From assembly GCA_035457525.1 (NCBI GenBank), contig DATIBN010000033.1, positions 1,061 through 65,060 on the forward strand: a DNA stretch of 64,000 bases, read 5' to 3'. Positions 11,675-60,254 of the stretch are shown here, piece by piece. Below the pieces are notes generated by a model. That model searched no databases and had not been told where the DNA came from. It saw nothing but the letters and a program-made list of their open reading frames with translations. A program made the translations under genes and the position numbers. The first letter of the stretch is position 1. Each line of letters starts with the position of its first letter. This DNA comes from Thermoanaerobaculia bacterium. GTDB taxonomy: Bacteria; Acidobacteriota; Thermoanaerobaculia; UBA5066; Gp7-AA6.

Positions 11675-11810
11675 CCCCTCACCCCGGCCCTCTCCCCGCC
11701 AGATCGGGGTCAGGTCTCCACTTGCCACTTCGCGCCGCGAAGTGGCAAGTCCGTTGCCGTCAAGTCGGAACTGACGCGACTCGTGAATACCTGACCCCGC
11801 GGGGAGAGGG
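11675..11810. repeat. GC-rich hairpin repeat with a nested MITE-like palindromic insertion
   Basis: Arms ccctctccccgc (11688-99) and gcggggagaggg (11799-810) flank a ~93-bp insert. The insert has 10-bp TIRs (ggggtcaggt / acctgacccc) and an inner perfect 15-bp-arm palindrome (11720-11750). The leader cccctcaccccggccc matches the repeat at 50263. Confidence 0.5.
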
Positions 11811-25401: not shown

Positions 25402-26319
25402 GTGGGTTTCGTGGTGCATTCCTTCGCCGCGGGCCTCGGGAGACTCGCCGATCCGAAGATCTCGCTCGCGTCGTTCTCGTCCCTGTTTCTCGGGACCGTT
25501 CTCGCAGCGCACGACGGCGCGCTCTCGATCGCATGGCTCGCCGTGACGGTCGGCGGCATCTTCGCTCTCGAGATCGCGAAGAACGCTTCGGGGGAGATCC
25601 ACGACTTCGCCGCCGATTCGTCGGTGAGAGCAGAGGAGCGGACTCCGTTCTCCGGCGGCAAGCGAGTTCTGGTGGACGGAGTGCTCACGCCGCGCGAGAC
25701 TGCCGTGCTCGCGGCGACCGGTTACTTCGTCACGGCTGCGTGTGGAGTGGCGATCGTTCTCTTTCGGGAGCCGGCCGTGCTCGGACTCGGCGTGCTCGGA
25801 CTCGCGTGCGCGTACTTCTACAACGCTCCGCCGGTGCGCCTCTCGTATCGCGGCCTCGGCGAGATCGCGGTCGGGATCTGTTACGGGCCGCTCATCGCGT
25901 GCGGAACGTACCTGGTTCAGCGCGGGACGATCGCGCGCTCCGTCCTGATTCTGTCGATCCCGCTCGGTCTCCTGATCGCGGCGTTTCTCTTCGTCAACGA
26001 GATCCCCGACCGCCGCGCCGACGAAAGTACGGGCAAGCGCACTCTCGTCGTGCGCCTGGGGGCCCGTCGTGCGGCCGTCGTTTTCGGTGGGATTCTCGCC
26101 GCCGCGTTCGCTCTCCTCTTCGCGCTCCCGCTCGCAGGTCTCCCTCTCGGCCTCGCCCTCGGCGTCGTCGCGGCCGTCCCCGCTTTCTTCGCCGCCCGGG
26201 ACCTCAAGAGAGATGTCTCGACTCCCGGCGCGTCCCTGCCTGCGCAACGCCTCGCTCTCGTGACATTTCTCCTGTTCGCTGCGGGCTCGGGGGTGGGTGC
26301 GGCGCTCCTCAAATCGTGA
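25402..26319 (+). CDS. UbiA-family aromatic prenyltransferase (MenA/UbiA-like)
   Basis: Polytopic membrane protein with NEIPDRRAD (NxxxDxxxD) motif. Confidence 0.8.
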   Translation: MGFVVHSFAAGLGRLADPKISLASFSSLFLGTVLAAHDGALSIAWLAVTVGGIFALEIAKNASGEIHDFAADSSVRAEERTPFSGGKRVLVDGVLTPRETAVLAATGYFVTAACGVAIVLFREPAVLGLGVLGLACAYFYNAPPVRLSYRGLGEIAVGICYGPLIACGTYLVQRGTIARSVLILSIPLGLLIAAFLFVNEIPDRRADESTGKRTLVVRLGARRAAVVFGGILAAAFALLFALPLAGLPLGLALGVVAAVPAFFAARDLKRDVSTPGASLPAQRLALVTFLLFAAGSGVGAALLKS

Positions 26320-26499: not shown

Positions 26500-28581
26500 A
26501 TGACGCTGTTCCGACGCACTCTCGCGATGGCGGTGACGGCGGGCGTGGTCTCGTTGACCGGCGCCGGCAAGCCGCCGAAGATAGTCGACCCCCGGTCCGT
26601 GATGGCTCCGGACCAGCTCTACCCGACGACCGCGGTCGAGCACTACTTGACCCAGGAGGTCTTCGACTACGTCCGACCCGGGTTCAACATCCGTGTCAAC
26701 AGCGTCACGATTCCGGAGGACCGGCGTCCGGTCGTGGATCTCAACTTTTATGACGACCTGAACCAGCCGCTCGATCGGCTCGGTCAGGTCACCCCCGGTG
26801 CGCTTTCGATCAGCCACATCCTCGCGTGGTGGGATCCCGTGAAGCGCCAGTACACCGCCTATACGACGCGGACCCAGACGAGCCCGATCACCGGAGTCTC
26901 CGCCGTCCAGGCGTCGTCCGACTCCGGCGGCGCGTTCACGGACATCGAGATCGGCCACGCGAGGTACCGGTTCCGCACGGCGCTGCCGGCGGACTTCGAC
27001 CGGACCAAGACCCACACGCTCGCCATCTACGCGACGCGCAACCTGAACGCGATCCTCGGCAAGAACTACTACGAGAACGTCGAGCACGACTTCCGCCCGG
27101 ACGCGGCCCCCGTCACCGAGACCTGGGCCGCCGTCACGAACGTCGAGCAAAGCTGCAACAAGTGCCACAACCCGCTTTCCGCGCACGGAGGCTCCCGGCA
27201 GGACGTGAAGCTCTGCGTGACCTGCCACCAGCCCCAGACGACGGATCCCGATACGGGGCAGACCGTGGATTTCAAGGTGATGATCCACAAGATCCACCGG
27301 GGCGAGGACCTGCCGAGCGTCCAGGCGGGCACGCCCTACGTCATCATCGGAAACCAGCAGTCCGTTCACGACTACTCCGAGGTCGTGTTCCCGCAGGACA
27401 TCCGCAACTGCACGACGTGCCACCAGGCGACCGCGCCCGAGGGACATATCTGGTACACGCGCCCGAGCCGCGCCGCCTGTTCCTCCTGCCACGACAACGT
27501 CGACTTCGCAACCGGTCAGAATCACCCCGCCGGCGCACAGGCCGACGACTCGGCCTGCGCGAGCTGCCACATCCCACAGGGCGACCGCGAGTTCGACGCG
27601 TCGATCAAGGGCGCGCACACGGTGCCGCTGAAGTCGGCGCAGTTGAAGGGGCTGACCGCGACCATCGTGTCGGTCGAGGATGCCGGACCCGGGTTGAAAC
27701 CGCGCGTGACCTTCCAGCTCAAGGAAGACGACGGAACCATCCTGAATCCGCAGCCTTTCGGCAGCAACCTGAACCTCCTCATGGGCGGCCCCACGAAGGA
27801 CTACGCGATCAATCCAATCCGGGAGCGCGCGGACAGCGCGTCCTTCAACGGTACGGTCGCGACCTACACGTTCAATCGGATGATCCCGGCCGACGCGACG
27901 GGCACGTGGGCGTTCTCGATCGAGGCGCGGCGCACGGTCGCTCTGAACCCGGGCACCACGGACCAGATGAACGTCACCGAGGGCGCGCTCAACCCGGTCG
28001 CCTATGCGGCCGTCACGGACTCGCAGCCGGTGCCACGGCGGATGACGGTCTCGATGGCCAAGTGCAACGAGTGCCACGACAGTCTCCGGCTTCACGGCGG
28101 CCAGCGGATCGAGATCCAGGAATGCGTGATGTGCCACAACCCGAACGCGAGCGACACCTCGCGGCGGCCGGCGGCGAACAATCCACCCGAGTCGATCGAC
28201 TTCAAGCGGATGATCCACCGGATCCACACGGGCGAGGAGCTCACGCAGGACTACACGGTGTACGGCTTCTTCACGCCGCCGAATCCGCCGAACCCGATCA
28301 ACTTCAACCACGTCCTGTTCCCGGGAGACCGGCGCGACTGCCAGTCGTGTCACGTCGCCGGCGAGTATCAGCTGCCGCTCGGCGAGGACAATCTGCCCAC
28401 ACAGACGTTGCGAGACTTCTACACGCCCCAGCAACCCACCGCGACCTCGTGCCTCGGGTGCCACGACACGCGGTCCGCGGCGGCGCACGCCTTCGTCAAC
28501 ACGGCGCCCTTCGGAGAGGCCTGCGCGTCCTGTCACGGTCCGAACGCCGAGTTCGCCGTCGACAAGGTCCATGCCCGCTAG
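26500..28581 (+). CDS. mtrC: decaheme outer-surface c-type cytochrome (MtrC/OmcA family-like)
   Basis: Signal peptide MTLFRRTLAMAVTAGVVSLTGA. Ten CxxCH motifs. GGAGG 6 nt upstream. Operon with MtrA- and MtrB-like genes. Confidence 0.75.
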   Translation: MTLFRRTLAMAVTAGVVSLTGAGKPPKIVDPRSVMAPDQLYPTTAVEHYLTQEVFDYVRPGFNIRVNSVTIPEDRRPVVDLNFYDDLNQPLDRLGQVTPGALSISHILAWWDPVKRQYTAYTTRTQTSPITGVSAVQASSDSGGAFTDIEIGHARYRFRTALPADFDRTKTHTLAIYATRNLNAILGKNYYENVEHDFRPDAAPVTETWAAVTNVEQSCNKCHNPLSAHGGSRQDVKLCVTCHQPQTTDPDTGQTVDFKVMIHKIHRGEDLPSVQAGTPYVIIGNQQSVHDYSEVVFPQDIRNCTTCHQATAPEGHIWYTRPSRAACSSCHDNVDFATGQNHPAGAQADDSACASCHIPQGDREFDASIKGAHTVPLKSAQLKGLTATIVSVEDAGPGLKPRVTFQLKEDDGTILNPQPFGSNLNLLMGGPTKDYAINPIRERADSASFNGTVATYTFNRMIPADATGTWAFSIEARRTVALNPGTTDQMNVTEGALNPVAYAAVTDSQPVPRRMTVSMAKCNECHDSLRLHGGQRIEIQECVMCHNPNASDTSRRPAANNPPESIDFKRMIHRIHTGEELTQDYTVYGFFTPPNPPNPINFNHVLFPGDRRDCQSCHVAGEYQLPLGEDNLPTQTLRDFYTPQQPTATSCLGCHDTRSAAAHAFVNTAPFGEACASCHGPNAEFAVDKVHAR

Positions 28582-29566
28582 CGGGGGGAAGGACACCGAT
28601 CTCCGCGCCCGCCCGTTTCGCCGGGCGCGGAGCCTGTCCGTCTCCCTCCTGGCGTTCGCGATCGCCGCGCTGACGCTCGCCGTCGCGACGGCTCAGAACG
28701 CTCCGCCCGCACCCACGCCGACACCCGCCTCCGCCGAGGCGGCGCCGGCGGAAGCCGCCGCGCTCTGCGGCGACTGCCACGACGACCAGGCCAAGGCCTT
28801 CGCGGCCAATCCGCACGCGCGAATGCCCGAGAAGCTCCGTCCCTTCGCGGGTTCTCCGAACTCCCTCTGCGAGAGCTGCCACGGCGACGGAAAAGCCCAC
28901 ATCGAGGCGGGAGGCGACAAGGCGCTGATCCGCGGCTTCCATGGCCGCGCCGACGCGGACACCTGTCTGACCTGCCACCTGCCGCGAGGAGACCATTCCG
29001 GACTGCGCGGCGGAATCCACACGAACTCGGAGGCCGTGCGCTGCACGACCTGCCACTCGGTTCACAGCCCGACGCCGAAGAGCCCGCACCTGCTGGCGAA
29101 GGCGCCGGTTCCGCTGTGCGCGTCGTGTCACGTCGTCCAGTCCGCGTCCCTCGCGACGAAGCCCTTCGCGCACCGGCTGGGTCGCGGCGGCCTCGACTGC
29201 ACCTCCTGTCACGACCCGCACGGCCGTCCCGGCAAGGAGAGCCTGAAGCAGACCCGCGACGGCGAGATGCCGTGCCTGAACTGCCACGCCGAGAAGCGCG
29301 GACCGTTCGTCTTCGAGCATCCACCCTCGGGTCTCGTCGGGGACTGCACGACGTGCCACCAGCCGCACGGCTCATCCAACCCGAAGCAACTCACGCGGGC
29401 GAACGTCTTCCAGCTCTGCCTGGAGTGCCACTCGACGCTCTCGGCCTCGACGCTCGGGTCGCAACCCCCCTCCTTCCACAACATCTCTCTGCCCCGGTAC
29501 CGCAACTGCACGACCTGTCACGTGGCCATCCACGGCTCGAATCTTTCGCCCGTCTTCTTCAAGTGA
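28571..29566 (+). CDS. mtrA: periplasmic decaheme c-type cytochrome (MtrA/DmsE/PioA family)
   Basis: 331 aa with ten CxxCH motifs (CGDCH, CESCH, CLTCH, CTTCH, CASCH, CTSCH, CLNCH, CTTCH, CLECH, CTTCH). Size and heme count match MtrA. Confidence 0.85.
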   Translation: MPASGGKDTDLRARPFRRARSLSVSLLAFAIAALTLAVATAQNAPPAPTPTPASAEAAPAEAAALCGDCHDDQAKAFAANPHARMPEKLRPFAGSPNSLCESCHGDGKAHIEAGGDKALIRGFHGRADADTCLTCHLPRGDHSGLRGGIHTNSEAVRCTTCHSVHSPTPKSPHLLAKAPVPLCASCHVVQSASLATKPFAHRLGRGGLDCTSCHDPHGRPGKESLKQTRDGEMPCLNCHAEKRGPFVFEHPPSGLVGDCTTCHQPHGSSNPKQLTRANVFQLCLECHSTLSASTLGSQPPSFHNISLPRYRNCTTCHVAIHGSNLSPVFFK

Positions 29567-29573
29567 GGGCGCG

Positions 29574-31520
29574 ATGAGACCCGAACGGATCGCGGTTTTC
29601 CTCCTCGGCGCCGTTCTGCTCCTGGTTCCGACCGGTGCGTCGGGCCAGGCGATCCCCCTCGACCTGGAAATCGGATACCGGTTCGTGGACGTCGACGGGA
29701 ACGACGACATGTACCGCAGCCAGATCAACGACCGCGAGGGGATCCTCCTGCGGTCGTTGACGTTCGCAACGGGAACGGTCGGCGGCTCGTTCGTCGACTC
29801 ACTGCGCGTGGATGCCTTCGACCTGGGCGCCGGGCCCGCCGGCCGGTTCCGCCTCGAGGCCGGGAAGACCGGCCTCTACCGTCTGCGCGTGGACTACCGT
29901 CGGATGGAGTTCTTCAGCGCGCTGCCGGCGTTCGCCAATCCGCTTCTCGACCGGGGCATCATCCCCGGCCAGCACACGTACGACCGGACGCGCCACCTGC
30001 TCGACGCGGAAATCGAGCTCCTGCCCTACGCGACCTTCTCGCCGATCGTCGGCTACTCGCTCAATCGGTACGAAGGTCCGGCCCGAACCACCTACGACGT
30101 CGGGGGCGACGAGTTCCGGCTCGCCTCGGATCTCGAGGACACGGAGCAGGAAGCGCGCATCGGCGTCGCGTTTCACACGGAGAACATCTCCGGCCGGATC
30201 GTGCAGGGGTGGCGGCAGTTCAAGGAAACCGAGAGGCTGACCCTCGCTCCGGGCGAGGGCGCCGGCAACAACGCCGGACCCGTGCTCGGCACGCCCGTGT
30301 CCATCACCGACTTCGAGCGGGATTCGCGCGTGAGGACGAACGTCCCGGTGACGACGGCGTTCCTGACCGGCCGGTTCGCCGGCCGCCTCCGGATCGCGGC
30401 GGGATACCTCCGCGCGAACAGCGAGACCCAGGCGTCGGAGACCGAGGACCTGACGGGCAACCTCGTCTCCTTCCAGATCAGCCGCTTCTTCCGCGGCCTC
30501 TCCGAGCCCATCTCTTCGCGCGCGCGTAACGAGCAGTGGCGCGGGCACGGCCGCGTCGAGTTCGAGATCGTCGACGGGATGGACATCTCCGCCGGCTACA
30601 CGCAGCGACACCGCGAGCTCGACGGCTTCGCGCTCATCTCCAGCCTCTTCCTCGACACCCTGACGTTCTCGGGACAGGACCCGCGCGACCTCCAGAGGTT
30701 GATCGAGGCGAACACCGCGCTCGAGAAGACCGAGAAGATCTTCGACGCGGCCTTCGACGCCCGGAGCCTCGGTCCGGTCGCCGTGCGCGTCGGATACGAG
30801 CAGACCGACCAGGACGTGCGGGTCACGCCCGATCCCGAAGAGATCGTCGTGCCCGGCGGCCAGGGCGGCGATTTCGACCGCCGGATCAAGTCCTGGACGG
30901 CCTCGGCGAATTTCCGCAGCGGCGGGATCACGCTCGGCGCCGACTACCGCAACGACCGCGCGGACGACGCCATCGTTCGGATCGACTACATCGAGCGCGA
31001 CCGCTATCGCGTGCGCGCCGGCTTTTCTCTGGGAGATCGCCTCCGGCTCTCCGCCAACGGCGAGCAGGTCGACGTTTCGAACGACGATCCCGGGATCGGG
31101 TTCGACGGTCGGATCCGGCAGTACGGCGGAGATCTCGAGGGCGTTCCCTGGAAGCCGCTCACGCTCCGCTTCTCCGCCAGCCGCTTCGAGGCGCGGAGCA
31201 CGATTCCGATCCGCCAGCCCCAGAATTTCTCGGTGATCGAGTCCCGGCATCGCGAGGACGGAACCTGGTTCGAGGGGGGCGCGGCGCTGGCATTCACCCG
31301 CTTCCGGCTCGAGGGGGCTCTGGGCCGGTTGGAGAACGAGGGGACCTTCCCCTTCACGATCGATCGGGCCCGGGCGCGCGCCGAGTTCGACTTCACCGCG
31401 CACCTGTCCGGCATCCTCGACTGGTATAACGACGAATACAGCGAATCGCCGCAGGACAACGGGAACCTGGGCGGCTTCGAGGCGAGCCGCTACGGGGTTT
31501 TTCTGCGGTTCCGCCTTTGA
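29574..31520 (+). CDS. mtrB: outer-membrane beta-barrel porin of the porin-cytochrome complex (MtrB/PioB-like)
   Basis: Signal peptide. 648 aa with alternating-hydrophobic beta-strand character, ending in an aromatic/hydrophobic C-terminus. Lies immediately after the mtrA-like gene. Confidence 0.7.
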   Translation: MRPERIAVFLLGAVLLLVPTGASGQAIPLDLEIGYRFVDVDGNDDMYRSQINDREGILLRSLTFATGTVGGSFVDSLRVDAFDLGAGPAGRFRLEAGKTGLYRLRVDYRRMEFFSALPAFANPLLDRGIIPGQHTYDRTRHLLDAEIELLPYATFSPIVGYSLNRYEGPARTTYDVGGDEFRLASDLEDTEQEARIGVAFHTENISGRIVQGWRQFKETERLTLAPGEGAGNNAGPVLGTPVSITDFERDSRVRTNVPVTTAFLTGRFAGRLRIAAGYLRANSETQASETEDLTGNLVSFQISRFFRGLSEPISSRARNEQWRGHGRVEFEIVDGMDISAGYTQRHRELDGFALISSLFLDTLTFSGQDPRDLQRLIEANTALEKTEKIFDAAFDARSLGPVAVRVGYEQTDQDVRVTPDPEEIVVPGGQGGDFDRRIKSWTASANFRSGGITLGADYRNDRADDAIVRIDYIERDRYRVRAGFSLGDRLRLSANGEQVDVSNDDPGIGFDGRIRQYGGDLEGVPWKPLTLRFSASRFEARSTIPIRQPQNFSVIESRHREDGTWFEGGAALAFTRFRLEGALGRLENEGTFPFTIDRARARAEFDFTAHLSGILDWYNDEYSESPQDNGNLGGFEASRYGVFLRFRL

Positions 31521-31558: not shown

Positions 31559-31840
31559 ATGAAAAAGAGCGGGTCGAAGATCGGATTCATTGCACTGGCA
31601 TTTTTCTGGGCCGGCTGGATGGCTTTGACGTCCGTGTCGACCGCGACACTTCCGATCCAGAAGAAGGCGAAGGAAGCCGGGTATCCGGCGACCAACTGCC
31701 AGTACTGCCACGTCGAGAAGCTCCCGAAGAAGGGGGCCGTGTCGCACAACGAGCGTGGCAAATGGCTGATCGCCGAAAAGGCAAAGCGGAAAGCGGCCGA
31801 GGTGGATGCCGCCTGGCTGAAGGATTACCCGGGCAAGTAA
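31559..31840 (+). CDS. small secreted single-CxxCH protein, paralog 1 (putative monoheme cytochrome c)
   Basis: MKKSGSKIGFIALAFFWAGWMALTSVSTATLPIQKKAKE...NCQYCH...WLKDYPGK. Highly similar to the ORFs at 35408 and 38600. Confidence 0.6.
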   Translation: MKKSGSKIGFIALAFFWAGWMALTSVSTATLPIQKKAKEAGYPATNCQYCHVEKLPKKGAVSHNERGKWLIAEKAKRKAAEVDAAWLKDYPGK

Positions 31841-31851
31841 GAACCGGGGAT

Positions 31852-31885
31852 CGGCCGGCCGGCTGCGGCCGGCCGGTGTTCGTTT
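31852..31885 (+). terminator. hairpin (self-complementary CCGGCCGG pair) followed by a T-rich tract
   Basis: cggccggccggctgcggccggccggtgttcgtttt, directly after small paralog 1. Confidence 0.4.
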
Positions 31886-31913
31886 TCACGCCCGACGCGA
31901 GGGGGGCGCCCGC

Positions 31914-33866
31914 ATGAGGCTGGCTTCGGCGTCGATGGTCCTCTGTCTCTCGGCGCTGGCCGCGGTCGCGCAGGCCCAGAAGGCGCCGACGAACGAGGAC
32001 TGCCTGACGTGCCACGAGGACCCGGAGTCGAAGCGCGCCAACGGCACGCCGGTCTTCGTCGCGAAGGACCGATTCGCGTCCTCTCTGCACGGCGAGGCGG
32101 GCCTCGCCTGCATCGACTGTCACGCCGACCTGGCGAAGACCGCGGACTTTCCGCACCCCGAGAAGCTCGCGCCGGCGCAGTGCTCGAGCTGCCACGACGA
32201 GGCGGTGAGGGCCTACTCCGAGGGGGTCCACGCGCTCGCGCGCCAGAAGGCTCCGGGCAGCCGGGCAGCGACCTGTGTGAGCTGTCATGGTGATGCCCAC
32301 ACGATGGTCGGCAGCTCGAGCCCCGGGTCGCCGATCTCCCGCACCGCCCTGCCCAAGACCTGCGGCAAGTGCCACGGCGTGAAGTTCGTCATGGAGCCCT
32401 CCGGTTACGACGTCAGCCCGTTCTTCAACTACCAGGAGAGCGTGCACGGGCGCGCCGTCGCCAACGGCTCCCAGACGGCCGCGGTGTGCACCGACTGCCA
32501 CAACGCGCACGACGTGCGCAGCGGCAAGGACCCCAAGTCGACGATCTTCAAGTTCAACGTGCCGGCCACCTGCAACAAGTGCCATGCCGAGCAGTCCGCT
32601 CAATTCATCGAAAGCGTGCACGGCAAGGCTCTCGAACGCGGAAACTGGCAGGCGCCCGTCTGCACCGACTGCCATGGCATCCACCTGATCAAGGATCACG
32701 TCGACCCGGCATCCTCGGTCTCCTCGCAGGCGGTCGCCCAGACGACCTGCGCCCAGTGTCACGAGGGCGTTCGGCTGACCCAGGAGTTCGGTGTCGCGCC
32801 GCAGCGCGTCGCGTCCTACCGGGGGAGCTATCACGGCCTGGCGTCGAGGATCGGAGCGGACGTGGCGGCCAACTGCGCGAGCTGCCACGGCGTGCACAAC
32901 ATCCTCCCGTCCTCGGATCCGCGCTCGACGGTCTACAAGGCCAACCTGGAGAAGACCTGCGGAACGTGCCACCCGGGGGCCGGAGCGAACTTCGCCGCCG
33001 GCACGATCCACCTCGGAGTTCCCGAGTCTCAGGACATCGGGTCGAAGGCCACGCGCTGGGTGCGCGTCATCTACATCGTTCTGATCGCCGGCACCATCGG
33101 ATTCATGCTGCTCCACAACGGGCTCGCGTGGTGGCGGCACGCCGCCGCCAAGCGCCGGCGCAAGGACCGCGTGATCCTGCGCATGAACAGGGTCCAGCGG
33201 ATCCAGCACTTCATCCTGTTCGCGAGCTTCGTGCTCCTGGTCCTGTCGGGCTTCGCGCTCGCCTGGCCGGATTCCTGGCTGGCCTGGCTGCTTGGCTCGA
33301 ACGAAAGCCTCCGGCGCACGATCCACCGCGTGGCGGGCGCCGTGATGCTCCTCCTCGCTCTCTTCCACGTGGGCTACATGGTCGGGACGCGGGAGGGCCG
33401 CCAGGGAATCAAGGACTTCTGGTTCCGGCCGCGCGACCTGCGCGACCTCTTCGGGAACTTCCGTTATTTCCTGGGACTCACGGACCGCCGTCCCGGATTC
33501 GGCCACTTCACTTACGCCGAGAAAGTCGAGTACTGGGCGCTGATCTGGGGCACGGGCGTCATGGGCGTCACGGGACTGATGCTCTGGTTCAAGGTGCAGT
33601 TCGGCACTTGGATTCCCCGCTGGTGGCTCGACATCGCGACGGCGATCCACTTCTGGGAGGCGGTGCTCGCCACGCTCGCGATCGTGGTCTGGCACTTCTA
33701 TCAGGTCATCTTCGAGCCCGAGGTCTACCCGATGAACTGGGCGTGGTGGGACGGGCGGATGACGGAGGAGGAGTACGCCCACGAGCACGGAGAAGAGCAC
33801 GCGAAGCGGCTCCGCGAGCAGGAAGAGAAGAAGGGTGCTCCGCCTCCGAAGCCCTCGGAGTCGTAA
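31914..33866 (+). CDS. multiheme cytochrome c fused to dihaem cytochrome b (CbcL-like inner-membrane quinol oxidoreductase)
   Basis: Signal peptide. Eleven CxxCH motifs in the N-terminal periplasmic domain. C-terminal FdnI/HydC-like 4-5 TM dihaem cytochrome b domain. Confidence 0.8.
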   Translation: MRLASASMVLCLSALAAVAQAQKAPTNEDCLTCHEDPESKRANGTPVFVAKDRFASSLHGEAGLACIDCHADLAKTADFPHPEKLAPAQCSSCHDEAVRAYSEGVHALARQKAPGSRAATCVSCHGDAHTMVGSSSPGSPISRTALPKTCGKCHGVKFVMEPSGYDVSPFFNYQESVHGRAVANGSQTAAVCTDCHNAHDVRSGKDPKSTIFKFNVPATCNKCHAEQSAQFIESVHGKALERGNWQAPVCTDCHGIHLIKDHVDPASSVSSQAVAQTTCAQCHEGVRLTQEFGVAPQRVASYRGSYHGLASRIGADVAANCASCHGVHNILPSSDPRSTVYKANLEKTCGTCHPGAGANFAAGTIHLGVPESQDIGSKATRWVRVIYIVLIAGTIGFMLLHNGLAWWRHAAAKRRRKDRVILRMNRVQRIQHFILFASFVLLVLSGFALAWPDSWLAWLLGSNESLRRTIHRVAGAVMLLLALFHVGYMVGTREGRQGIKDFWFRPRDLRDLFGNFRYFLGLTDRRPGFGHFTYAEKVEYWALIWGTGVMGVTGLMLWFKVQFGTWIPRWWLDIATAIHFWEAVLATLAIVVWHFYQVIFEPEVYPMNWAWWDGRMTEEEYAHEHGEEHAKRLREQEEKKGAPPPKPSES

Positions 33867-33923
33867 ACTGGTCTCCCGATTCGCCGGAAAACGGTACGCC
33901 GCCCTGATTCAGGAGGGATAAGC

Positions 33924-35378
33924 ATGCCGAAGAAGGGGACCAGAACGTTCGGACAGTGGCTGCGGCCCGCTTTCTATCTCGGGCAGAATCCGATCAGCCT
34001 GACCGGCGCGATCCTGACGACGAGCGCCGGCCTGACTCTCGTGACGTTCTGGGCCTACGAGATCCTCAAGGGTGGGCCCGTTCATCCGTACACGGGCATC
34101 GTCTTCTTCCTCGTACTTCCCGGGATTTTCCTTCTCGGCCTCGTCCTGATGCCGCTCGGGGCGTTCCTCCAGCGCCGCAAACTGCGGAAGGAAGGCAAGC
34201 TCGCGCAGCCGTATCCGGCGATCGACCTTCGCCGGCCGATCCTCCGGCGCGCTCTCGTCCTCGTGATCTTCGCCAGCGCGTTGAACGCGACTCTCATGGG
34301 CATCGCGAGCTACAAGGGCGTCGAGCACATGGACTCCGTCGAGTTCTGCGGGCAGACCTGTCACGTCGTGATGGCGCCGGAGTTCACGGCGTACAAGGGG
34401 TCCCCGCACTCGCGGGTTCCCTGCGTGGACTGCCACATCGGGTCGGGCGCGCCGTGGTTCGTGAAGGCGAAAATCTCGGGAGTTCGCCAGGTGTTCGCCG
34501 TCGCCTTCGACACCTATTCGCGCCCGATCCCCTCGCCCGTCGAGGAGCTGCGCCCCGCGCGCGACACCTGCGAGCAGTGCCACTGGCCGCAGAAGTTCAC
34601 GGGCGACAAGCTCCTGGTGCGCAAGAAATTCACGGACGACGAGAAGAACACCCCCCTGACGACGGTGCTGCTGCTCAAGATCGGCGGCCGGCGCGGCGAC
34701 GGCGGCATCGGCATCCACGGCCGCCACCTCGACGAGGTCGAGCGGATTCAGTACGTCACGACGGACCGGCGTCGGCAGGTGATCCCGCAGGTGACCTACA
34801 CCGGAACCGACGGGCGGCAGATCGTGTACGCCTCCTCAGAGATCAAGGCGACGGCGGAACAGCTCAAGACCGGCGAGCGCCGCACGATGGACTGCATGGA
34901 TTGCCACAACCGTCCGTCGCACGCGTTCCAGATGCCGGAGCGGGCGGTCGACGAGGCGATGGCGACCAACCGCATCAGCCCGGAGCTGCCGTTCGCCAAG
35001 AAGAAGTCGGTGGAGCTGCTTCGCGCGGCGTATCCCGATCGTGGAACGGCCGCGCGAAAGATCCCGGCTTCCTTCGCCGAGTACTACCGGACGACGTATC
35101 CGCAGGAGTATCAGACCCACCGTGCGCTCGTGGAGTCGTCGGGCCAGCAGGTCGCGGAGATCTACCTGCGGAACGTCTTCCCGAACATGAAGATCACGTG
35201 GGGCACCTATCCGAACAACATCGGGCACGAGGACTTTCTCGGCTGCTTCCGCTGCCACGACGGCAACCACAAGAGCGCCGACGGAAAGCTGATCTCCGAC
35301 GACTGCGAAGCGTGCCACACGGTTCTCGCGCAGGAGGAATCGGATCCCAAGGTCCTCGCGGACCTGGGTCTCAAATAG
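33924..35378 (+). CDS. inner-membrane multiheme c-type cytochrome (ImcH/NapC-NirT-like, 7 heme motifs)
   Basis: Three N-terminal TM helices. One CX3CH (CGQTCH) and six CxxCH motifs. Confidence 0.7.
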   Translation: MPKKGTRTFGQWLRPAFYLGQNPISLTGAILTTSAGLTLVTFWAYEILKGGPVHPYTGIVFFLVLPGIFLLGLVLMPLGAFLQRRKLRKEGKLAQPYPAIDLRRPILRRALVLVIFASALNATLMGIASYKGVEHMDSVEFCGQTCHVVMAPEFTAYKGSPHSRVPCVDCHIGSGAPWFVKAKISGVRQVFAVAFDTYSRPIPSPVEELRPARDTCEQCHWPQKFTGDKLLVRKKFTDDEKNTPLTTVLLLKIGGRRGDGGIGIHGRHLDEVERIQYVTTDRRRQVIPQVTYTGTDGRQIVYASSEIKATAEQLKTGERRTMDCMDCHNRPSHAFQMPERAVDEAMATNRISPELPFAKKKSVELLRAAYPDRGTAARKIPASFAEYYRTTYPQEYQTHRALVESSGQQVAEIYLRNVFPNMKITWGTYPNNIGHEDFLGCFRCHDGNHKSADGKLISDDCEACHTVLAQEESDPKVLADLGLK

Positions 35379-35407
35379 ATGAGGCTGCTAGACTTCAAAC
35401 CGGACTG

Positions 35408-35707
35408 GAGGAACCAATGAACAGCGGAAAATCGCGCGTCGCCCTCGTTGCGCTCGTCCTCTTCTGGGTCGGCTGGATGGCGTTCACCTCGACATCGTCG
35501 GCGACCCTCCCCATGCAGAAGAAGGCGAAAGAGCTGGGCATCACCGGAGTGACGGACTGCCTGTCCTGCCATGGCGAGAAGATGCCCAAGAAGGGCGCCT
35601 CGACTCTGAACGACCGCGGCAAGTGGCTCGTGGCCGAGAAGGAGAAGAGGGGAGTGAAGGAAATCGACGTCGCCTGGCTGAAGGATTACCCGGGCGACAA
35701 GAAGTAG
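35408..35707 (+). CDS. small secreted single-CxxCH protein, paralog 2
   Basis: MNSGKSRVALVALVLFWVGWMAFTSTSSATLPMQKKAKE...DCLSCH...WLKDYPGDKK. Confidence 0.6.
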   Translation, partial: EEPMNSGKSRVALVALVLFWVGWMAFTSTSSATLPMQKKAKELGITGVTDCLSCHGEKMPKKGASTLNDRGKWLVAEKEKRGVKEIDVAWLKDYPGDKK

Positions 35708-35729
35708 CGCGCGCGGAAGGGTCGGCGAC

Positions 35730-36191
35730 GTGGAGGCGACGGCGAGGGAACCGGGCTCCGGCGGCGTGACGCGCCGGAGCTGGGCCTCCTGGCTCCTCGG
35801 GACGAGTCTCGGCGCGACGCTGTTTGCGTTCCTGTATCCGGTCTTGAACTACCTCGTCCCTCCGGCGTCGTCGGAGCCCTCGCTCTCCGAGTTCGAGCTC
35901 GACCTGAAGGCGGCGGACGTCCCGCCGTCCTCCGGCCGGATCGTTCCGGTCGGCGGGAAACCGGTGCTGCTCCTGAAAAACGCGGCCGGGGAGCTCTCGG
36001 CGCTGACCGCGACGTGCACGCACCTCGACTGCACGGTCCAATACCGCGCCGACCGCACCGACGTCTGGTGCGCGTGCCACAACGGAACCTACGACCTGAA
36101 GGGGCGGAACATCTCCGGACCCCCTCCCCGTCCGCTGACGCCGCTGGAGGTGTATGTCCGAGGCGAAAAGATCGTCGTCAAGCTCGCCTGA
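35730..36191 (+). CDS. Rieske iron-sulfur protein (cytochrome bc-type complex)
   Basis: Tat-like [17 protein letters not shown] ... CACHNG Rieske boxes. GTG start. Confidence 0.8.
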
Positions 36192-37278
36192 TCCGGCGCC
36201 GCGGGCGCCGGGGGAAAGCCGGCTGCACGCCTGGGCGCGCGACCGGCTGGGCTGGGACGACCTCGCGCACCTCGCGGCGAAGAAACGCGTCCCGGTTCAC
36301 CGCTACACCATCTTCTATTACCTCGGCGGGATGGCGTTGTTCCTCTTTCTCGTCCAGGTCGCCACCGGCATCCTCCTTCTCCTCTACTACCGGCCGAGCG
36401 CGGCCGAGGCGTTCGAGAGCGTCCAGTACATGATGGCCGACGTTCCGTTCGGCTGGCTGATTCGCTCGATCCACTCGTGGGGGGCGAACCTCTTCGTCGG
36501 GGTCGTCTTCGCGCACCTGATCTCGGTTTTCTTCCTGAAGGCCTACCGGGCGCCGCGCGAGATGACCTGGGTCACGGGCGTTCTGCTTCTCTTCCTCGCG
36601 CTCGGGTTCGGGTTCTCGGGCTACCTCCTGCCGTGGAACACGCTGGCGTTCTTCGCCACGAAGGTCGGAACCGACGTCCCCGCGCAGATCCCGGTCGTCG
36701 GCCACCTGCTCTCGCGCATCATGCGCGGGGGTTCGGACGTGAGCGGCGCGACGCTCTCCCGGTTCTACGGCATTCACGTCGCGATCCTGCCGGCCATCTC
36801 GACGCTGATTCTCGGGGCGCACCTCCTGCTCGTTCAGAGGCACGGGATGAGCGTTCCCCGCTCGGTGGAGGGGAAGACGCGCCGCAGCATCCCGTTCGTT
36901 CCGGACTTCCTCATGCGCGACATGGTGGGTTGGCTCGCGGCGGTCGGGCTTCTCGCGGCGCTCGCCGCGTTCTTCCCGTGGGAGCTGGGCGTCAAGGCGG
37001 ACCCGTTCGCGCCCGCGCCCGCCGGAATCCGTCCGGAGTGGTACTTCCTCTGGATGTTCCAGGGGCTGAAGTACCTTCCGGCGAAAATTTTCGGAATCCC
37101 CGGGGAGACCCTGGGCGTGCTCTTCTTCGGGGCGCTCGGCGCCGCTCTCGTCGCGGTTCCCTGGCTCGACCCGCGCGGCCGGCGCGGGATCGCGATCGCC
37201 GCCGTGGTCGTGCTCGCGGCCGCCGCGATACTGACCGTGCTCGCGCTCCTGCCGGTTCCAGGAGAAGCGAAGCCGTGA
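36154..37278 (+). CDS. cytochrome b (bc1/b6-type)
   Basis: Conserved N-terminal region [10 protein letters not shown]...[13 protein letters not shown]. Haem-ligating His in TM helices. 374 aa. Confidence 0.85.
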
Positions 37279-38549
37279 GGGGGTTCGTCGTCCTCCTCTT
37301 GATGTTCCTCGCGGCGCCGTCAGTCCGTGCCCAGGCGCCCCCGAAGCCGCCGGCCGCGATCAACGGGTGCGTCGACTGCCACACCGCCCTGGACGACCCG
37401 AGGATCACGCCGCCCGTGAAGCTCTTCGCCGACGACGTCCACGCGAAGGCCGGCTTCACGTGCGTCTTCTGCCACGGAGGGGACGCGCGGCAGGAGGACC
37501 AGGAGAAGGCGCACGATCCGGCGAAGGGCTTCATCGGCAAGCCGAAGCCGCGCGAGATCCCGGAGCTGTGCGGAAAGTGTCACTCGGACGCGGCGCTCAT
37601 GAAGCAGTACGACCCCTCCCAGAGGATCGATCAGCTCGCCGAATACCGGACGAGCGGGCACGGCAAGGCGCTCGCCCGGGGCGACACGACGGTCGCGGAG
37701 TGCGCGAGCTGCCACGGCGCGCACGGAATCCAGCCGGTGAAGGACACGCGGTCTCCCGTGTCGCCGACCCGGGTCGCGGAGACCTGCAACCACTGCCACG
37801 GAAACGCCGCGCTCATGGCGGCGCACCAGCTCCCCTCGGATCCGTACGAGAAGTGGTCTCGGAGCGTGCACTACCGTGCGCGGGTGGAGAAGGCGGACCT
37901 GTCCGCCCCGACGTGCAACTCGTGTCACGGCAACCACGGTGCGGTGCCGCCCGAGGTCGGCTCGGTGGCGAACGTCTGCGGCACGTGCCACGTGACCTTC
38001 GCCGATCAGTTCAAGCTCTCGCCTCACTGGGAACCGTTCAAGGAGATGGGCCTCCCCGGCTGCGTGGCCTGTCACGAAAACCACGAGATCGTGAAGCCGA
38101 CCGAGGCGTTCCTGGCGGAGGGGAGTGAGAGCAAGTGCTCGAGCTGCCACGAGGCGGACTCGAAGGGCGCGCGGGCGGCGGCCGAGATGCACTCGGATCT
38201 CGTCGGGCTCGACCGCGAGATCCGGCGCGCCACGCAATTGGTCGACCGTGCGGCGGAGGCGGGGATGGAGGTGTCGAAGGTCCGCTTCGACCTCGTCGCT
38301 GCGACGAACGCCCTGACGAAGGCGCGCGCCGACGTCCACCTGTTCCGCCCGTCGGCGGTTCAAGCGGCGGTGGCGGAGGGTCTGAAGGTCGCCCGCGGGG
38401 CCGCCACCGGCGGGGAGGCGCGCCTGAAGGAGCGCGACTTCCGACGCCGGGGACTATTCATCTCTCTCGGGCTGATCCTGCTGTCGATCGCGGCGCTGGT
38501 GGTCCGGATCCGCGAACGGGAGCGTTCGACGCGGGAACCCGGGGAGTAG
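37275..38549 (+). CDS. nonaheme c-type cytochrome with C-terminal membrane anchor (bc-complex c-subunit, Cbc-like)
   Basis: Signal peptide and nine CxxCH motifs. GTG start overlaps the cytochrome b stop (GTGA). C-terminal TM helix. Confidence 0.8.
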
Positions 38550-38599
38550 GCTCTATTCACGCGCAGGGACGCGACCCTGCCGAACACGGAGGATCGGAG

Positions 38600-38890
38600 A
38601 TGAAGAAACCCGACTCGCGCCTCGCCGCGACCGCGCTCGTACTGTTCTCGGCCGGATGGATCGCGCTGACAGCGTCCTCGACGGCAACGATGCCCCTGCA
38701 GAAAAAAGCGAAGGAGCTGGGCTTCTCCGCCGACAACTGCCTCTACTGCCACAACGAGAAGCTGCCGAAGAAGGGCGCCGTGACGCAGAACGGCCGGGGA
38801 GAGTGGCTCATCGCCGAGAAGGAGAAGAGACACGCCAAGGAAGTCGACGTGACCTGGCTGAAGTACTACCCGGAGGAAAAGAAGAAGTAG
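38600..38890 (+). CDS. small secreted single-CxxCH protein, paralog 3
   Basis: MKKPDSRLAATALVLFSAGWIALTASSTATMPLQKKAKE...NCLYCH...WLKYYPEEKKK. Confidence 0.6.
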   Translation: MKKPDSRLAATALVLFSAGWIALTASSTATMPLQKKAKELGFSADNCLYCHNEKLPKKGAVTQNGRGEWLIAEKEKRHAKEVDVTWLKYYPEEKKK

Positions 38891-59597: not shown

Positions 59598-60002
59598 ATG
59601 GCAAAAGAAGTGAGAATCCAACTGACCCCCGAGCAGAAGGCCAAGATCAAGGCGGCCACCGGAAAGACCATGGGCGAGATCCGGGTGACCAGTCTGGGCA
59701 AGAACCTGGCCGTTTCACCCAGCCAGCAGACGACCAAGCTCGGCGCCCAGGACATGAGCATCGGCGCGCAGGACATGAGCATCGGCGCGCAGGACCTGAG
59801 CATCGGCGCCCAGGACATGAGCATCGGCGCGCAGGACCTCACCGCGCAGGACCTCACCGCGAAGGATCTCAGCGCGAAGGATCTCACGGCGAAAGACCTC
59901 ACCGCGAAGGACCTCACCGCGAAGGATCTCAGCGCGAAGGATCTCAGCGCGAAGGACCTCACGGCGAAGGATCTCACCGCGAAGGATCTCCGCCAGGCTT
60001 GA
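59598..60002 (+). CDS. small tandem-repeat protein (GAQDMSI x4, then AKDL[TS] x ~10)
   Basis: MAKEVRIQLTPEQKAKIKAATGKTMGEIRV N-terminal module, then low-complexity heptad and pentad repeats. Strong SD. Confidence 0.55.
   Translation: MAKEVRIQLTPEQKAKIKAATGKTMGEIRVTSLGKNLAVSPSQQTTKLGAQDMSIGAQDMSIGAQDLSIGAQDMSIGAQDLTAQDLTAKDLSAKDLTAKDLTAKDLTAKDLSAKDLSAKDLTAKDLTAKDLRQA
59741..59993 (+). repeat. coding tandem DNA repeats (21-bp x4, then 15-bp x ~10)
   Basis: Units gcgcgcaggacatgagcatcg and gcgaaggatctcacc with variants, read directly in the sequence. Confidence 0.7.
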
Positions 60003-60026
60003 CGTTCCGATTCTCTCGAAGCGAAA

Positions 60027-60049
60027 GCCCCGCACCCGCGGGGCTTTTT
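60027..60049 (+). terminator. intrinsic terminator
   Basis: gccccgc-accc-gcggggc followed by ttttt. Confidence 0.6.
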
Positions 60050-60071
60050 GTTTGGTCGATGCTGGCCTTCG

Positions 60072-60093
60072 ATCGTTGACTAATCGTTGACTA
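60072..60093. promoter_or_regulatory. perfect 11-bp tandem direct repeat ATCGTTGACTA x2 (possible enhancer/UAS)
   Basis: Located 115-135 bp upstream of the second sigma54-like -24 element, in an AT-richer tract. Confidence 0.3.
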
Positions 60094-60206
60094 AATCATC
60101 CAGGGCTCAGAAATTCAGCCATCCCGGGTGCCGTGGCTGGGCCGCAGCGGGGAGCTATCTCTCTGCAGGAGCGCGAGGTCGGGGGCGGGCCGGTCGGTTT
60201 GCGAAT

Positions 60207-60222
60207 TGGTCCCCGAATTGCG
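60207..60222 (+). promoter_or_regulatory. putative sigma54 (-24/-12) promoter of repeat-protein gene 2
   Basis: TGGTCCccgaaTTGCG. Both hexamer and pentamer are identical to the promoter at 59551, with identical spacing. Confidence 0.5.
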
Positions 60223-60254
60223 AGGAGTCTTCCGGAGGAAAGGAGGTGACACCG

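What the first reader, a model, noticed from the sequence alone, without database searches (positions are those of the whole stretch)
31559..38890. Three paralogous ~95-aa secreted single-CxxCH proteins, one terminating each cytochrome module
ORFs at 31559-31840, 35408-35707 and 38600-38890 encode near-identical proteins. Each has a signal peptide ending ...T(S)S(S)ATLP, then xQKKAKExG...(N/D)C(Q/L)(Y/S)CH(V/G/N)EK(L/M)PKKGA...RG(K/E)WL(I/V)AEK(A/E)KR...(V/I)D(A/V)(A/T)WLK(D/Y)YP. Each sits as the last gene of a module: after mtrB-like, after ImcH-like, after the 9-heme cytochrome. A single CxxCH in a lysine-rich ~65-residue mature protein, and the one-per-module arrangement, suggest a dedicated small periplasmic partner, either an electron shuttle or an assembly factor. 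I do not recognise this as a named family.
Basis: seen in the sequence. Interest (0 to 1): 0.75.

Follow-up and report, generated by a model that had tools for sequence, protein, structure and literature searches.

The report
Tiny unnamed cytochromes in metal-respiration cluster
Three related genes in an acidobacterial metal-respiration gene cluster encode very small (about 7.5 kDa) exported single-haem proteins of an undescribed family that most likely ferry electrons across the periplasm, a known job done here by a new kind of protein.

Summary
Three paralogous genes (31559-31840, 35417-35707, 38600-38890, + strand) encode 93-96 aa proteins that are 60-65% identical. Each has a signal peptide and one CxxCH. 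The mature proteins are 64-67 aa with pI about 9.4. They sit in an MtrCAB-type / CbcL-like / NapC-NirT / Rieske-cytochrome b cluster of a Thermoanaerobaculia genome.

No Pfam, NCBIfam or PDB family matches them. A confident AlphaFold model (pLDDT 83) has no structural neighbour.

The family is real and under purifying selection: 407 close homologues, 236 clusters at 50% identity, dN/dS 0.1-0.26. CxxCH is invariant, but no second His or Met is conserved.

"One per module" is peculiar to this lineage. In most relatives, 2-3 copies lie in tandem between the porin gene and the CbcL-like gene. Distant family members (Holophagae and others) are stand-alone genes with no cytochrome neighbours.

Best reading: soluble periplasmic monohaem electron carriers, doing the job of MtoD/PmcA in Sideroxydans or PpcA in Geobacter, but unrelated to them in sequence and predicted fold.

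The signal-peptidase site lies in a strictly fixed register. In dihaem variants an invariant Met sits at the equivalent internal position. Together these suggest the sixth haem ligand comes from the extreme N-terminus, possibly the alpha-amine as in cytochrome f. That step is inferred, not shown.

The parts
31559..31840 (+). S1: 93-aa precursor. After predicted cleavage (STA|TLPI) the mature protein is 64 aa, 7.2 kDa plus haem, pI 9.6, with one CxxCH (CQYCH).
   Evidence: Translation, alignment, properties and Shine-Dalgarno site. In the tree it groups with the porin-adjacent first copies of tandem arrays.
31850..31887 (+). Terminator-like hairpin (12 bp, 10 G-C pairs) followed by a T-rich tail, directly after S1.
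   Evidence: Similar hairpin plus T-run after the last S copy in 8 related loci. Suggestive only.
35417..35707 (+). S2: 96-aa precursor, mature 67 aa (SSA|TLPM), pI 9.4, CLSCH. It has no His other than the one in CxxCH, and has Met at mature position 4.
   Evidence: Orthologues at the same position in L002, L009 and L065.
38600..38890 (+). S3: 96-aa precursor, mature 67 aa (STA|TMPL), pI 9.3, CLYCH. Orthogroup signature RGEWL..KRHAKEVDVxWLKYYP.
   Evidence: (100% identical to P0001, 'hypothetical protein', Thermoanaerobaculia MAG).
26500..28581 (+). OmcA/MtrC-family decahaem outer-surface cytochrome.
   Evidence: NCBIfam TIGR03507, 495 bits against a cut-off of 209. Pfam PF22113. 10 CxxCH.
28571..29566 (+). 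MtrA/DmsE-family decahaem periplasmic cytochrome.
   Evidence: NCBIfam TIGR03508, 206 bits against a cut-off of 192. 10 CxxCH.
29574..31520 (+). Outer-membrane porin in the MtrB position.
   Evidence: Only a borderline Pfam Porin_4 match, so the assignment rests on position. The equivalent gene in L064, whose similarity to this one was not measured, matches PF11854 MtrB_PioB.
31914..33866 (+). CbcL-like inner-membrane quinol oxidoreductase: a multihaem c domain (11 CxxCH) fused to a cytochrome b561/FdnI-type membrane domain.
   Evidence: Pfam PF01292 plus multihaem families, NCBIfam. The CbcL architecture is described in PMC9129911.
33924..35378 (+). NapC/NirT-family membrane multihaem cytochrome.
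   Evidence: Pfam PF03264. NrfH and TorC models score below cut-off. 5 CxxCH.
35730..36191 (+). Rieske iron-sulfur subunit.
   Evidence: Pfam PF00355.
36154..37278 (+). Cytochrome b (b6/bc type).
   Evidence: Pfam PF00033 and PF00032, NCBIfam.
37275..38549 (+). 9-CxxCH multihaem cytochrome of the Rieske/cytochrome b module. The C-terminal hydrophobic stretch was read from the translation only.
   Evidence: Gene boundaries follow the identical contig L065.

Best explanation
S1, S2 and S3 are Sec-exported, soluble, lysine-rich c-type monohaem cytochromes of about 7.5 kDa. They belong to an uncurated family seen so far almost only in Acidobacteriota.

Proposed mechanism, step by step:
1. After the signal peptide is cut at a conserved Ser/Ala-x-Ala site, the cytochrome c maturation system attaches one haem to the invariant CxxCH.
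2. In this organism the three paralogues act as diffusible periplasmic electron carriers. They take electrons from the inner-membrane quinol oxidoreductases of the same cluster: the CbcL-like protein, the NapC/NirT-type protein, and the Rieske/cytochrome b/9-haem complex.
3. They deliver the electrons to the MtrA-type decahaem of the outer-membrane MtrCAB-type conduit. The direction could be reversed during electron uptake.
4. The paralogues are old and kept apart by selection, so they probably differ in redox potential or partner preference. They are not wired one-to-one to the three modules.

Shown: gene reality, export signal, invariant CxxCH, purifying selection, tight synteny with electron-transfer genes in this subfamily, absence from curated families, and no known fold match.

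Inferred: haem binding, solubility, electron shuttling, partner identity, and the nature of the sixth ligand.
For: Haem site:
- CxxCH is invariant in every intact member, both in 47 distant sequences and in 133 sequences.
- Dihaem variants keep both copies of the motif.

Export:
- n-h-c signal peptides, with Ala at -1 in 290 of 324 sequences and Ser/Ala at -3 in 277 of 319.

Selection:
- dN/dS is 0.11-0.26 between orthologues.
- Paralogue dS is 0.6 to above 2, so these are old duplicates.

Context:
- 49 genome loci were analysed. Among 92 copies, the arrays are flanked upstream by the porin gene (20) and downstream by the CbcL-like gene (28) or the Rieske gene (9).
- A second cluster type reads MtrA | MtrB_PioB porin | S | NapC/NirT tetrahaem | Rieske | cytochrome b | multihaem | S (also L003 and L008).
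- That mirrors the Sideroxydans mto cluster, in which the small monohaems MtoD and PmcA flank MtoA, MtoB and ImoA (PMC4412085, PMC13390432).
- No other small soluble cytochrome is encoded in the window's cluster.

Precedents:
- Geobacter CbcL passes electrons to the 71-residue PpcA (PMC9129911).
- Lineage-specific periplasmic cytochromes just downstream of mtrB are a known pattern (PMC8805035).
- Tandem paralogues and basic pI (median 9.4) fit abundant, electrostatically steered carriers.
Against: - No experiment shows haem binding, and no expression data were available.
- No conserved Met or second His exists. 38 members have neither anywhere in the core. The haem may therefore be five-coordinate or unusually ligated, which is less typical of simple shuttles.
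- Distant members of the family are stand-alone genes next to unrelated functions, or are fused to NTF2-like (DUF4440), DUF2911 or DinB domains. The fold is therefore not specific to electron export.
- A few window-type copies lie in non-cytochrome contexts (L007, L033, L044).
- Whether the rest of this genome encodes other periplasmic carriers is unknown.
Confidence: 0.58

Rival explanations
1. Bound subunit rather than shuttle. Each small cytochrome docks permanently on a membrane complex as its electron exit or entry haem, for example playing the cytochrome c1 role for the Rieske/cytochrome b complex or capping the periplasmic end of MtrA.
For: - S genes lie directly upstream of Rieske/cytochrome b genes in 9 cases. 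These include a second, divergent Rieske/cytochrome b type (28% and 37% identity) in L004, L016, L019 and L043.
- S2 ends 22 nt before the Rieske gene.
- A missing sixth ligand could be supplied by a partner protein.
Against: - The commonest position is a tandem array between the porin and CbcL genes, not next to one complex.
- Copy number (1-3) does not track the number of complexes.
- The Rieske/cytochrome b module already has its own 9-haem subunit.
- There is no membrane anchor after cleavage.
Confidence: 0.15
2. Ligand-binding or catalytic haem protein. The haem is five-coordinate with an open distal site and binds or detoxifies a small molecule (NO, O2, H2O2, sulfide) or senses redox state, protecting the periplasmic cytochrome network rather than carrying its electron flux.
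For: - No conserved distal ligand. 38 members have no Met and no second His at all.
- Apart from CxxCH, the only invariant residues are Gly, Asp and Trp. This loosely recalls His-Asp-Trp proximal arrangements in peroxidases (own knowledge, speculative).
- Distant members are stand-alone or fused to non-redox domains.
Against: - A 60-residue domain can hardly build a selective distal pocket.
- The window-type subfamily has strong, specific synteny with electron-transfer modules.
- The invariant Met in dihaem variants points to six-coordinate haem at the equivalent site.
Confidence: 0.12
3. Biogenesis or assembly factor, such as a haem or apoprotein chaperone for the multihaem cytochromes of the cluster.
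For: Only the co-location with many multihaem cytochrome genes.
Against: - A CxxCH motif is itself a substrate of the maturation machinery. By own knowledge, known haem chaperones such as CcmE use other motifs.
- Distant members occur without cytochrome neighbours.
- There is no similarity to any Ccm, Ccs or Nrf biogenesis family.
- Tandem multiplication is not expected of a chaperone.
Confidence: 0.05
4. Not a haem protein. The Cys-x-x-Cys-His is a metal (Fe, Zn or Cu) site or a redox-active disulfide in a small periplasmic protein.
For: - Weak local resemblance (CxxCHxEKxP) to DUF2024/2HFQ, which to my knowledge is not described as a haem protein (own knowledge). The match is E 0.007 and 16.7 bits against a cut-off of 27.
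- One window-type copy lies next to a FeoB-like ORF (L044).
Against: - Strict invariance of exactly C-x-x-C-H in an exported protein, in organisms rich in c-type cytochromes. By own knowledge, the maturation systems haem-load accessible periplasmic CxxCH motifs.
- No further conserved Cys or His to complete a metal site.
- Duplication of the helix-plus-CxxCH unit in dihaem variants, with an invariant Met.
Confidence: 0.05

Closest known systems
MtoD and PmcA of Sideroxydans lithotrophicus ES-1 (small periplasmic monohaem cytochromes of the mto cluster)
   Same: - Small exported monohaem cytochromes encoded inside a porin-cytochrome cluster, next to the porin/MtrA genes and a NapC/NirT-type quinol oxidoreductase.
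- More than one such monohaem per cluster, with distinct potentials (+155 and -143 mV) and distinct partners (PMC4412085, PMC13390432).
- The order in L064 (MtrA | MtrB | S | NapC-like ... S) is directly comparable.
   Different: - MtoD and PmcA are 11-11.5 kDa class I cytochromes with bis-His or His/Met ligation.
- S proteins are 7.2-7.8 kDa and have no conserved distal ligand.
- S proteins give no significant match to class I models or to 4XXL (E 0.32), and no fold match.
- The organisms are Acidobacteriota whose cluster looks like a metal-reducing one (OmcA/MtrC, CbcL-like), not betaproteobacterial iron oxidisers.
PpcA family (cytochrome c7) of Geobacter
   Same: - Very small (71 aa), basic, abundant periplasmic carriers.
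- PpcA accepts electrons from CbcL (PMC9129911).
- By own knowledge, the family occurs as several paralogues, some of them adjacent.
   Different: - PpcA carries three bis-His haems.
- S proteins have one CxxCH and no PF14522 match.
- They are not homologous.
Lineage-specific accessory cytochromes of mtrCAB clusters (Baker et al. 2022, mBio)
   Same: - Periplasmic cytochrome genes immediately downstream of mtrB that are specific to one phylogenetic group. Examples are a tetrahaem in Group 5 Acidobacteriia and a monohaem in Group 6 (PMC8805035).
   Different: - 'Thermoanaerobacul*' does not occur in the text of that paper.
- The S family, its tandem arrays and its wider stand-alone superfamily appear in none of the papers found by the searches run here.
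Cytochrome f (haem ligation mode only)
   Same: - In cytochrome f the sixth haem ligand is the alpha-amino group of residue 1 of the mature protein, with N-terminus Y1-P2-I3-F4 and C21-x-x-C24-H25 (own knowledge of the structure).
- S-family members have a fixed mature N-terminus x1-[Pro at 2 or 3]-hydrophobic/aromatic4, many literally YPPF, with CxxCH 15-18 residues later.
   Different: - There is no sequence or fold relationship. Cytochrome f is a large beta-rich protein.
- The ligation mode in S proteins is a hypothesis, not a result.

Membership tests
c-type cytochrome (general) | CxxCH haem-attachment motif conserved across homologues | tested here: met
   C, C and H are invariant in alignments A2, A3 and A4. 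The 19 of 270 sequences lacking the motif mostly look like fragments or frameshifted calls.
c-type cytochrome (general) | Export to the periplasm, where haem is attached | tested here: met
   n-h-c signal peptide with Ala at -1 (90%) and Ser/Ala at -3 (87%). Rule-based reading only; no SignalP was available.
c-type cytochrome (general) | Covalently bound haem in the mature protein | not testable with these tools
   Needs haem stain, pyridine haemochrome or mass spectrometry.
Class I cytochrome c (Pfam PF00034 / PF13442; includes MtoD, PmcA, c551-c553) | Significant match to class I sequence models | tested here: not met
   - Best Pfam match is PF13442 at E 0.36, 11.6 bits against a cut-off of 27.
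- Distant members also score below cut-off.
- The PDB profile search gives per-domain E 7.4 for c555 and E 0.32 for MtoD, covering only the N-terminal helix plus CxxCH.
Class I cytochrome c | Conserved distal Met (or His) ligand C-terminal to the CxxCH | tested here: not met
   - No conserved Met or His outside CxxCH.
- S1 has no Met and S2 has no second His.
- 38 members have neither.
Class I cytochrome c | Class I fold | tested here: not met
Cytochrome c7 / PpcA family | Three CxxCH motifs in about 70 residues, with a PF14522 match | tested here: not met
   One CxxCH and no PF14522 hit.
Periplasmic carrier of a porin-cytochrome pathway (functional class of MtoD, PmcA, PpcA, STC) | Gene embedded in a cluster with outer-membrane conduit genes and inner-membrane quinol oxidoreductase genes | tested here: met
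   Shown for the window and most of 49 related loci. Not true of distant family members.
Periplasmic carrier of a porin-cytochrome pathway | Electron exchange with both inner-membrane and outer-membrane partners at suitable potentials | not testable with these tools
   Needs voltammetry plus NMR or kinetic titrations.
HAO-like / PF13447 multihaem module | Match above the family threshold | tested here: not met
   PF13447 at E 0.015, 15 bits against a cut-off of 21.9. HAO-like PDB chains at E 0.18-0.39 over about 67 residues. Kept only as a lead.
DUF2024 (PF09630) | Match above the family threshold | tested here: not met
   16.7 bits against a cut-off of 27, covering only about 30 residues around CxxCHxEKxP.
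Cytochrome f-type ligation (mechanistic analogy, not a family claim) | Mature N-terminus at a fixed distance from the haem site, with Pro and an aromatic/hydrophobic residue in the first four positions | tested here: met
   305 of 366 sequences have no indel between the -1 Ala and Ala8. Pro is at position 2 or 3, and position 4 is always M, F, I, Y, L or W.
Cytochrome f-type ligation | Alpha-amino nitrogen bound to the haem iron | not testable with these tools
   Needs a crystal or NMR structure, or spectroscopy of N-terminally extended variants.

The most novel reading that the evidence does not exclude
The family is a new minimal cytochrome c fold of about 60 residues and three short helices, with no structural relatives. 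Its sixth haem ligand is supplied by the extreme N-terminus created by signal-peptide cleavage: the alpha-amine as in cytochrome f, or Met at mature position 4 where present.

Under this reading the three paralogues in the window differ in ligation or environment at that spot (S1 Ile4, S2 Met4, S3 Leu4). They would form a set of carriers with staggered potentials, matched to the CbcL-like, NapC/NirT-type and Rieske/cytochrome b quinol oxidoreductases, which in Geobacter-type systems work in different potential windows.
Probability: 0.25. Interest if true: 0.7.

Novelty: new variant of a known kind. Interest (0 to 1): 0.5.

Why it matters
- Thermoanaerobaculia and Vicinamibacteria are widespread soil, sediment and wastewater Acidobacteriota with no genetic system. 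Their gene clusters suggest mineral or electrode respiration, but the periplasmic link between inner and outer membrane was unassigned. These proteins are the only candidates in the cluster, so they make the pathway model complete and testable.
- At 64-67 residues they would be among the smallest natural monohaem cytochromes c. They have no recognisable fold relative and no canonical sixth ligand. That makes them an attractive minimal scaffold for studying how haem potential is set, and a possible second example of N-terminal amine ligation.
- Practically, an HMM of the window-type subfamily would be a compact marker for this acidobacterial electron-export cluster in metagenomes. At present the genes are annotated 'hypothetical protein' or given generic COG names.

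Tried and rejected
- **Curated families.** Pfam and NCBIfam scans of the three proteins gave only sub-threshold noise: DUF2024, PF13447, PF13442 and PP0621.
- **PDB sequence profiles.** Searches with a shallow and a deep profile found nothing significant. The c555-trimer E-value of 5.6e-5 is an artefact of three identical weak domains, each at E 7.4.
- **First AlphaFold run.** With 30 close homologues and the signal peptide included, the model was poor (pLDDT 62) and was not used.
- **'One paralogue per module'.** Rejected by comparative synteny.
- **Recent duplication or gene conversion.** Rejected because paralogue dS is 0.6 or more.
- **Internal ligand candidates.** Lys, Tyr and Asp were considered. 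Tyr90 is replaced by Phe in several members, Lys74 by Arg, Glu or Leu, and the Lys-rich loop after CxxCH is absent from distant subgroups. None can be a family-wide ligand.
- **Dihaem contexts.** The metagenome scan gave only 8 mostly short loci. The three examined (L056-L058) lack cytochrome neighbours.
- **Terminator conservation.** The scan after the S array is only suggestive in such GC-rich DNA.
- **Literature.** Searches found no description of the family.
Full report
**1. Observation**

The three ORFs are real. They are 60-65% identical in protein and 74-75% in DNA, and tblastn finds no further copy in the window. Each has a GGAGG- or GGGAG-type ribosome-binding site. GC3 is 0.80-0.89, against 0.88-0.91 in the neighbouring genes. 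S3 is identical to a 'hypothetical protein' of a Thermoanaerobaculia MAG.

**2. Surroundings**

The genes lie in one co-directional cluster:
- UbiA-family prenyltransferase, 25402-26319.
- OmcA/MtrC-family decahaem, 26500-28581 (TIGR03507, 495 bits).
- MtrA/DmsE-family decahaem, 28571-29566 (TIGR03508, 206 bits).
- Porin, 29574-31520.
- S1.
- Multihaem-plus-cytochrome-b561 fusion with the CbcL architecture, 31914-33866.
- NapC/NirT-family multihaem protein, 33924-35378.
- S2.
- Rieske protein, 35730-36191.
- Cytochrome b, 36154-37278.
- 9-CxxCH cytochrome, 37275-38549.
- S3.
- A convergent aldolase gene.

These assignments come; the CbcL architecture is described in PMC9129911. A strong terminator-like hairpin follows S1 at 31850-31887. 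No other small soluble cytochrome is encoded in the cluster.

**3. The protein**

The predicted precursor has a classical signal peptide. Cleavage after Ser/Thr-Ala leaves 64-67 residues, 7.2-7.8 kDa without haem, at pI 9.3-9.6.

No Pfam or NCBIfam model reaches threshold. Profile searches of all PDB sequences give nothing significant. The only recurring weak signal is the generic 'N-terminal helix plus CxxCH' of class I cytochromes, plus a marginal stretch of HAO-like proteins.

**4. The family**

Close homologues number 407. All are about 95 aa, have no Pfam domain, and are named 'hypothetical' or given generic COG names.

An exhaustive profile search of 1.84 billion representative proteins finds 236 clusters at E of 0.001 or better. 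They fall into several groups:
- The window type.
- Types beginning A|YPPF.. or A|KPAF...
- Dihaem variants of 122-176 aa, in which the first helix plus CxxCH is duplicated.
- Versions fused at the C-terminus to DUF4440/SnoaL, DUF2911 or DinB domains.

Named sources are Thermoanaerobaculia, Vicinamibacteria, Holophagae and unclassified Acidobacteriota. One contig is labelled Ignavibacteriota; its copies are nearly identical to those of a Vicinamibacteria contig.

Across 47 distant members only C, C, H, Trp and Leu (of WLKDY) are invariant. Across 133 sequences the invariant residues are C, C, H, Gly, Asp and Trp. Orthologue dN/dS is 0.11-0.26.

The invariance of exactly C-x-x-C-H in an exported protein is the main argument for covalent haem. 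Haem binding itself is inferred.

**5. Is it 'one per module'?**

Not in most relatives. In 49 genome loci plus the window there are 92 copies, arranged as 26 singletons, 18 doublets and 10 triplets. The arrays are flanked upstream by the porin gene (20 cases) and downstream by the CbcL-like gene (28) or a Rieske gene (9).

The typical layout is OmcA | MtrA | porin | S | S (| S) | CbcL | NapC-type | ... | Rieske | cytochrome b | multihaem, with nothing after the NapC-type gene or the multihaem gene. Only the closest relatives (L002, L009, L001, L065) share the dispersed layout of the window.

A neighbour-joining tree of the mature domain (short sequences, no bootstrap) gives this picture:
- S1 groups with the porin-adjacent first copies.
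- S2 and S3 group with the CbcL-proximal copies.
- S3 groups with the middle copy of triplets.

The three paralogues therefore predate the rearrangement that scattered them. Vicinamibacteria have their own triplication.

A compact cluster type also exists: MtrA | MtrB_PioB porin | S | NapC/NirT tetrahaem | Rieske | cytochrome b | multihaem | S (L003 and L008).

**6. Is the link to cytochrome clusters general?**

No. Five of five distant monohaem members examined are stand-alone genes among unrelated functions, and the three dihaem loci examined also have no cytochrome neighbours. A few window-type copies also lie outside cytochrome clusters (L007, L033, and L044 next to a FeoB-like ORF). The electron-transfer association is therefore a property of one subfamily of a broader small-cytochrome family.

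**7. Mechanism**

The best-supported role is a diffusible periplasmic electron carrier between the inner-membrane quinol oxidoreductases and the MtrA-type entry of the outer-membrane conduit.

The closest functional precedent is the Sideroxydans mto cluster. There the small monohaems MtoD (bis-His, +155 mV) and PmcA (His/Met, -143 mV) flank MtoA, MtoB and the NapC/NirT protein ImoA, and they have different partners (PMC4412085, PMC13390432). In Geobacter, CbcL reduces the 71-residue PpcA. Group-specific periplasmic cytochromes downstream of mtrB are a recognised pattern (PMC8805035).

S proteins share the job description and the genomic position, but not the family. They fail the class I tests on sequence, on distal ligand and on fold.

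**8. The sixth ligand**

S1 contains no Met, and S2 contains no His outside CxxCH. Thirty-eight family members have neither residue anywhere in the core. Canonical His/Met or bis-His ligation therefore cannot be the family-wide solution.

Two regularities point to the N-terminus:
- **Fixed register of the cleavage site.** Ala occupies -1 in 290 of 324 sequences. The mature chain then reads x1, Pro at position 2 or 3, a hydrophobic or aromatic residue at position 4 (M 86, F 68, I 63, Y 55, L 37, W 24), x5, K6, K7, A8. There is no indel in 305 of 366 sequences.
- **Dihaem variants.** In these, the internal copy of this helix cannot have a free N-terminus. An invariant Met appears there, and HMMER aligns it to position 4.

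The start of the first helix therefore probably covers the distal face of the haem. In the monohaem proteins the ligand could be:
- the alpha-amine of residue 1, as in cytochrome f, whose mature N-terminus is Y-P-I-F with CxxCH at residues 21-25 (own knowledge);
- Met4 where it is present, as in S2;
- nothing, giving a five-coordinate haem.

This step is inference. The model coordinates could not be inspected and no haem-aware prediction was available.

**9. Verdict**

An undescribed small-cytochrome family linked to electron-transfer clusters exists, and a carrier role is likely. The one-per-module pairing is lineage-specific, and the superfamily is not confined to cytochrome operons.

It is a new variant of a known kind: a periplasmic carrier of a porin-cytochrome pathway, built on an unrelated and unusually small haem domain. 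Interest is moderate. It would be higher if the N-terminal ligation or staggered potentials are borne out.

Noticed in passing
window 31850-31887: Strong terminator-like hairpin (12 bp, 10 G-C pairs) plus a T-rich tail directly after S1. It suggests the OmcA-MtrA-porin-S1 genes form a transcription unit, or that the S1 3' end is stabilised. Similar hairpins follow the last S copy in L013, L017, L028, L037, L039, L044, L045 and L046.
   Followed up: partly
window 59740-60473: Tandem repeats with 15-nt (also 21-, 36- and 60-nt) periods at 87-100% match. They are probably coding pentapeptide-type repeats. Unrelated to the finding.
   Followed up: partly
window 11720-11750: A 31-nt, near-perfect (97%) inverted self-match (palindrome) picked up by the window self-BLAST.
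   Followed up: no
window 25402-26319: A UbiA-family prenyltransferase gene lies directly upstream of the OmcA/MtrC gene on the same strand. It may be quinone- or haem-related and part of the same unit.
   Followed up: no
window 8220-8441: A second, weak Rieske-like tblastn match far upstream of the cluster.
   Followed up: no
L044 10001-10258 and 10337-12334: In one Vicinamibacteria MAG a window-type S gene lies directly upstream of a FeoB-like GTPase ORF (ferrous iron transport) rather than next to cytochromes.
   Followed up: no
L064 6925-7140: A 71-aa ORF with no Pfam match sits between the NapC/NirT tetrahaem gene and the Rieske gene in the compact cluster type.
   Followed up: no
L004, L016, L019, L043: A window-type S gene directly precedes a second, divergent Rieske/cytochrome b pair (28% and 37% identical to the window's). 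This hints at a separate bc-type complex that also uses this small cytochrome.
   Followed up: partly
P0132, P0136, P0137, P0140, P0143, P0145-P0147, P0149, P0150, P0153-P0155, P0161, P0165, P0197 (alignment A5 uses 16 of these): Dihaem variants of the family. The first helix plus CxxCH is duplicated, with an invariant Met, and in one subgroup a His-Met pair, in the linker. The contexts examined are stand-alone.
   Followed up: partly
P0190, P0210, P0213, P0244, P0262, P0263, P0189, P0194, P0250: Distant members carry C-terminal DUF4440/SnoaL (NTF2-like), DUF2911 or DinB_2 domains after a low-complexity linker. This is an unexplained pairing of a mini-cytochrome with non-redox domains.
   Followed up: partly
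S1-S3 residues about 31-87 against HAO-like chains 6t5e and 4n4j, residues about 240-310: Marginal similarity (E 0.18-0.39; Pfam PF13447 at E 0.015) that spans the whole mature domain, to one haem-binding stretch of hydroxylamine-oxidoreductase-like multihaem proteins. It may hint at the evolutionary origin of the domain. Not significant.
   Followed up: partly
L046 (contig labelled Ignavibacteriota): Its three S copies and flanking genes are nearly identical to those of Vicinamibacteria contig L037. This is probably a binning error or a very recent transfer.
   Followed up: no
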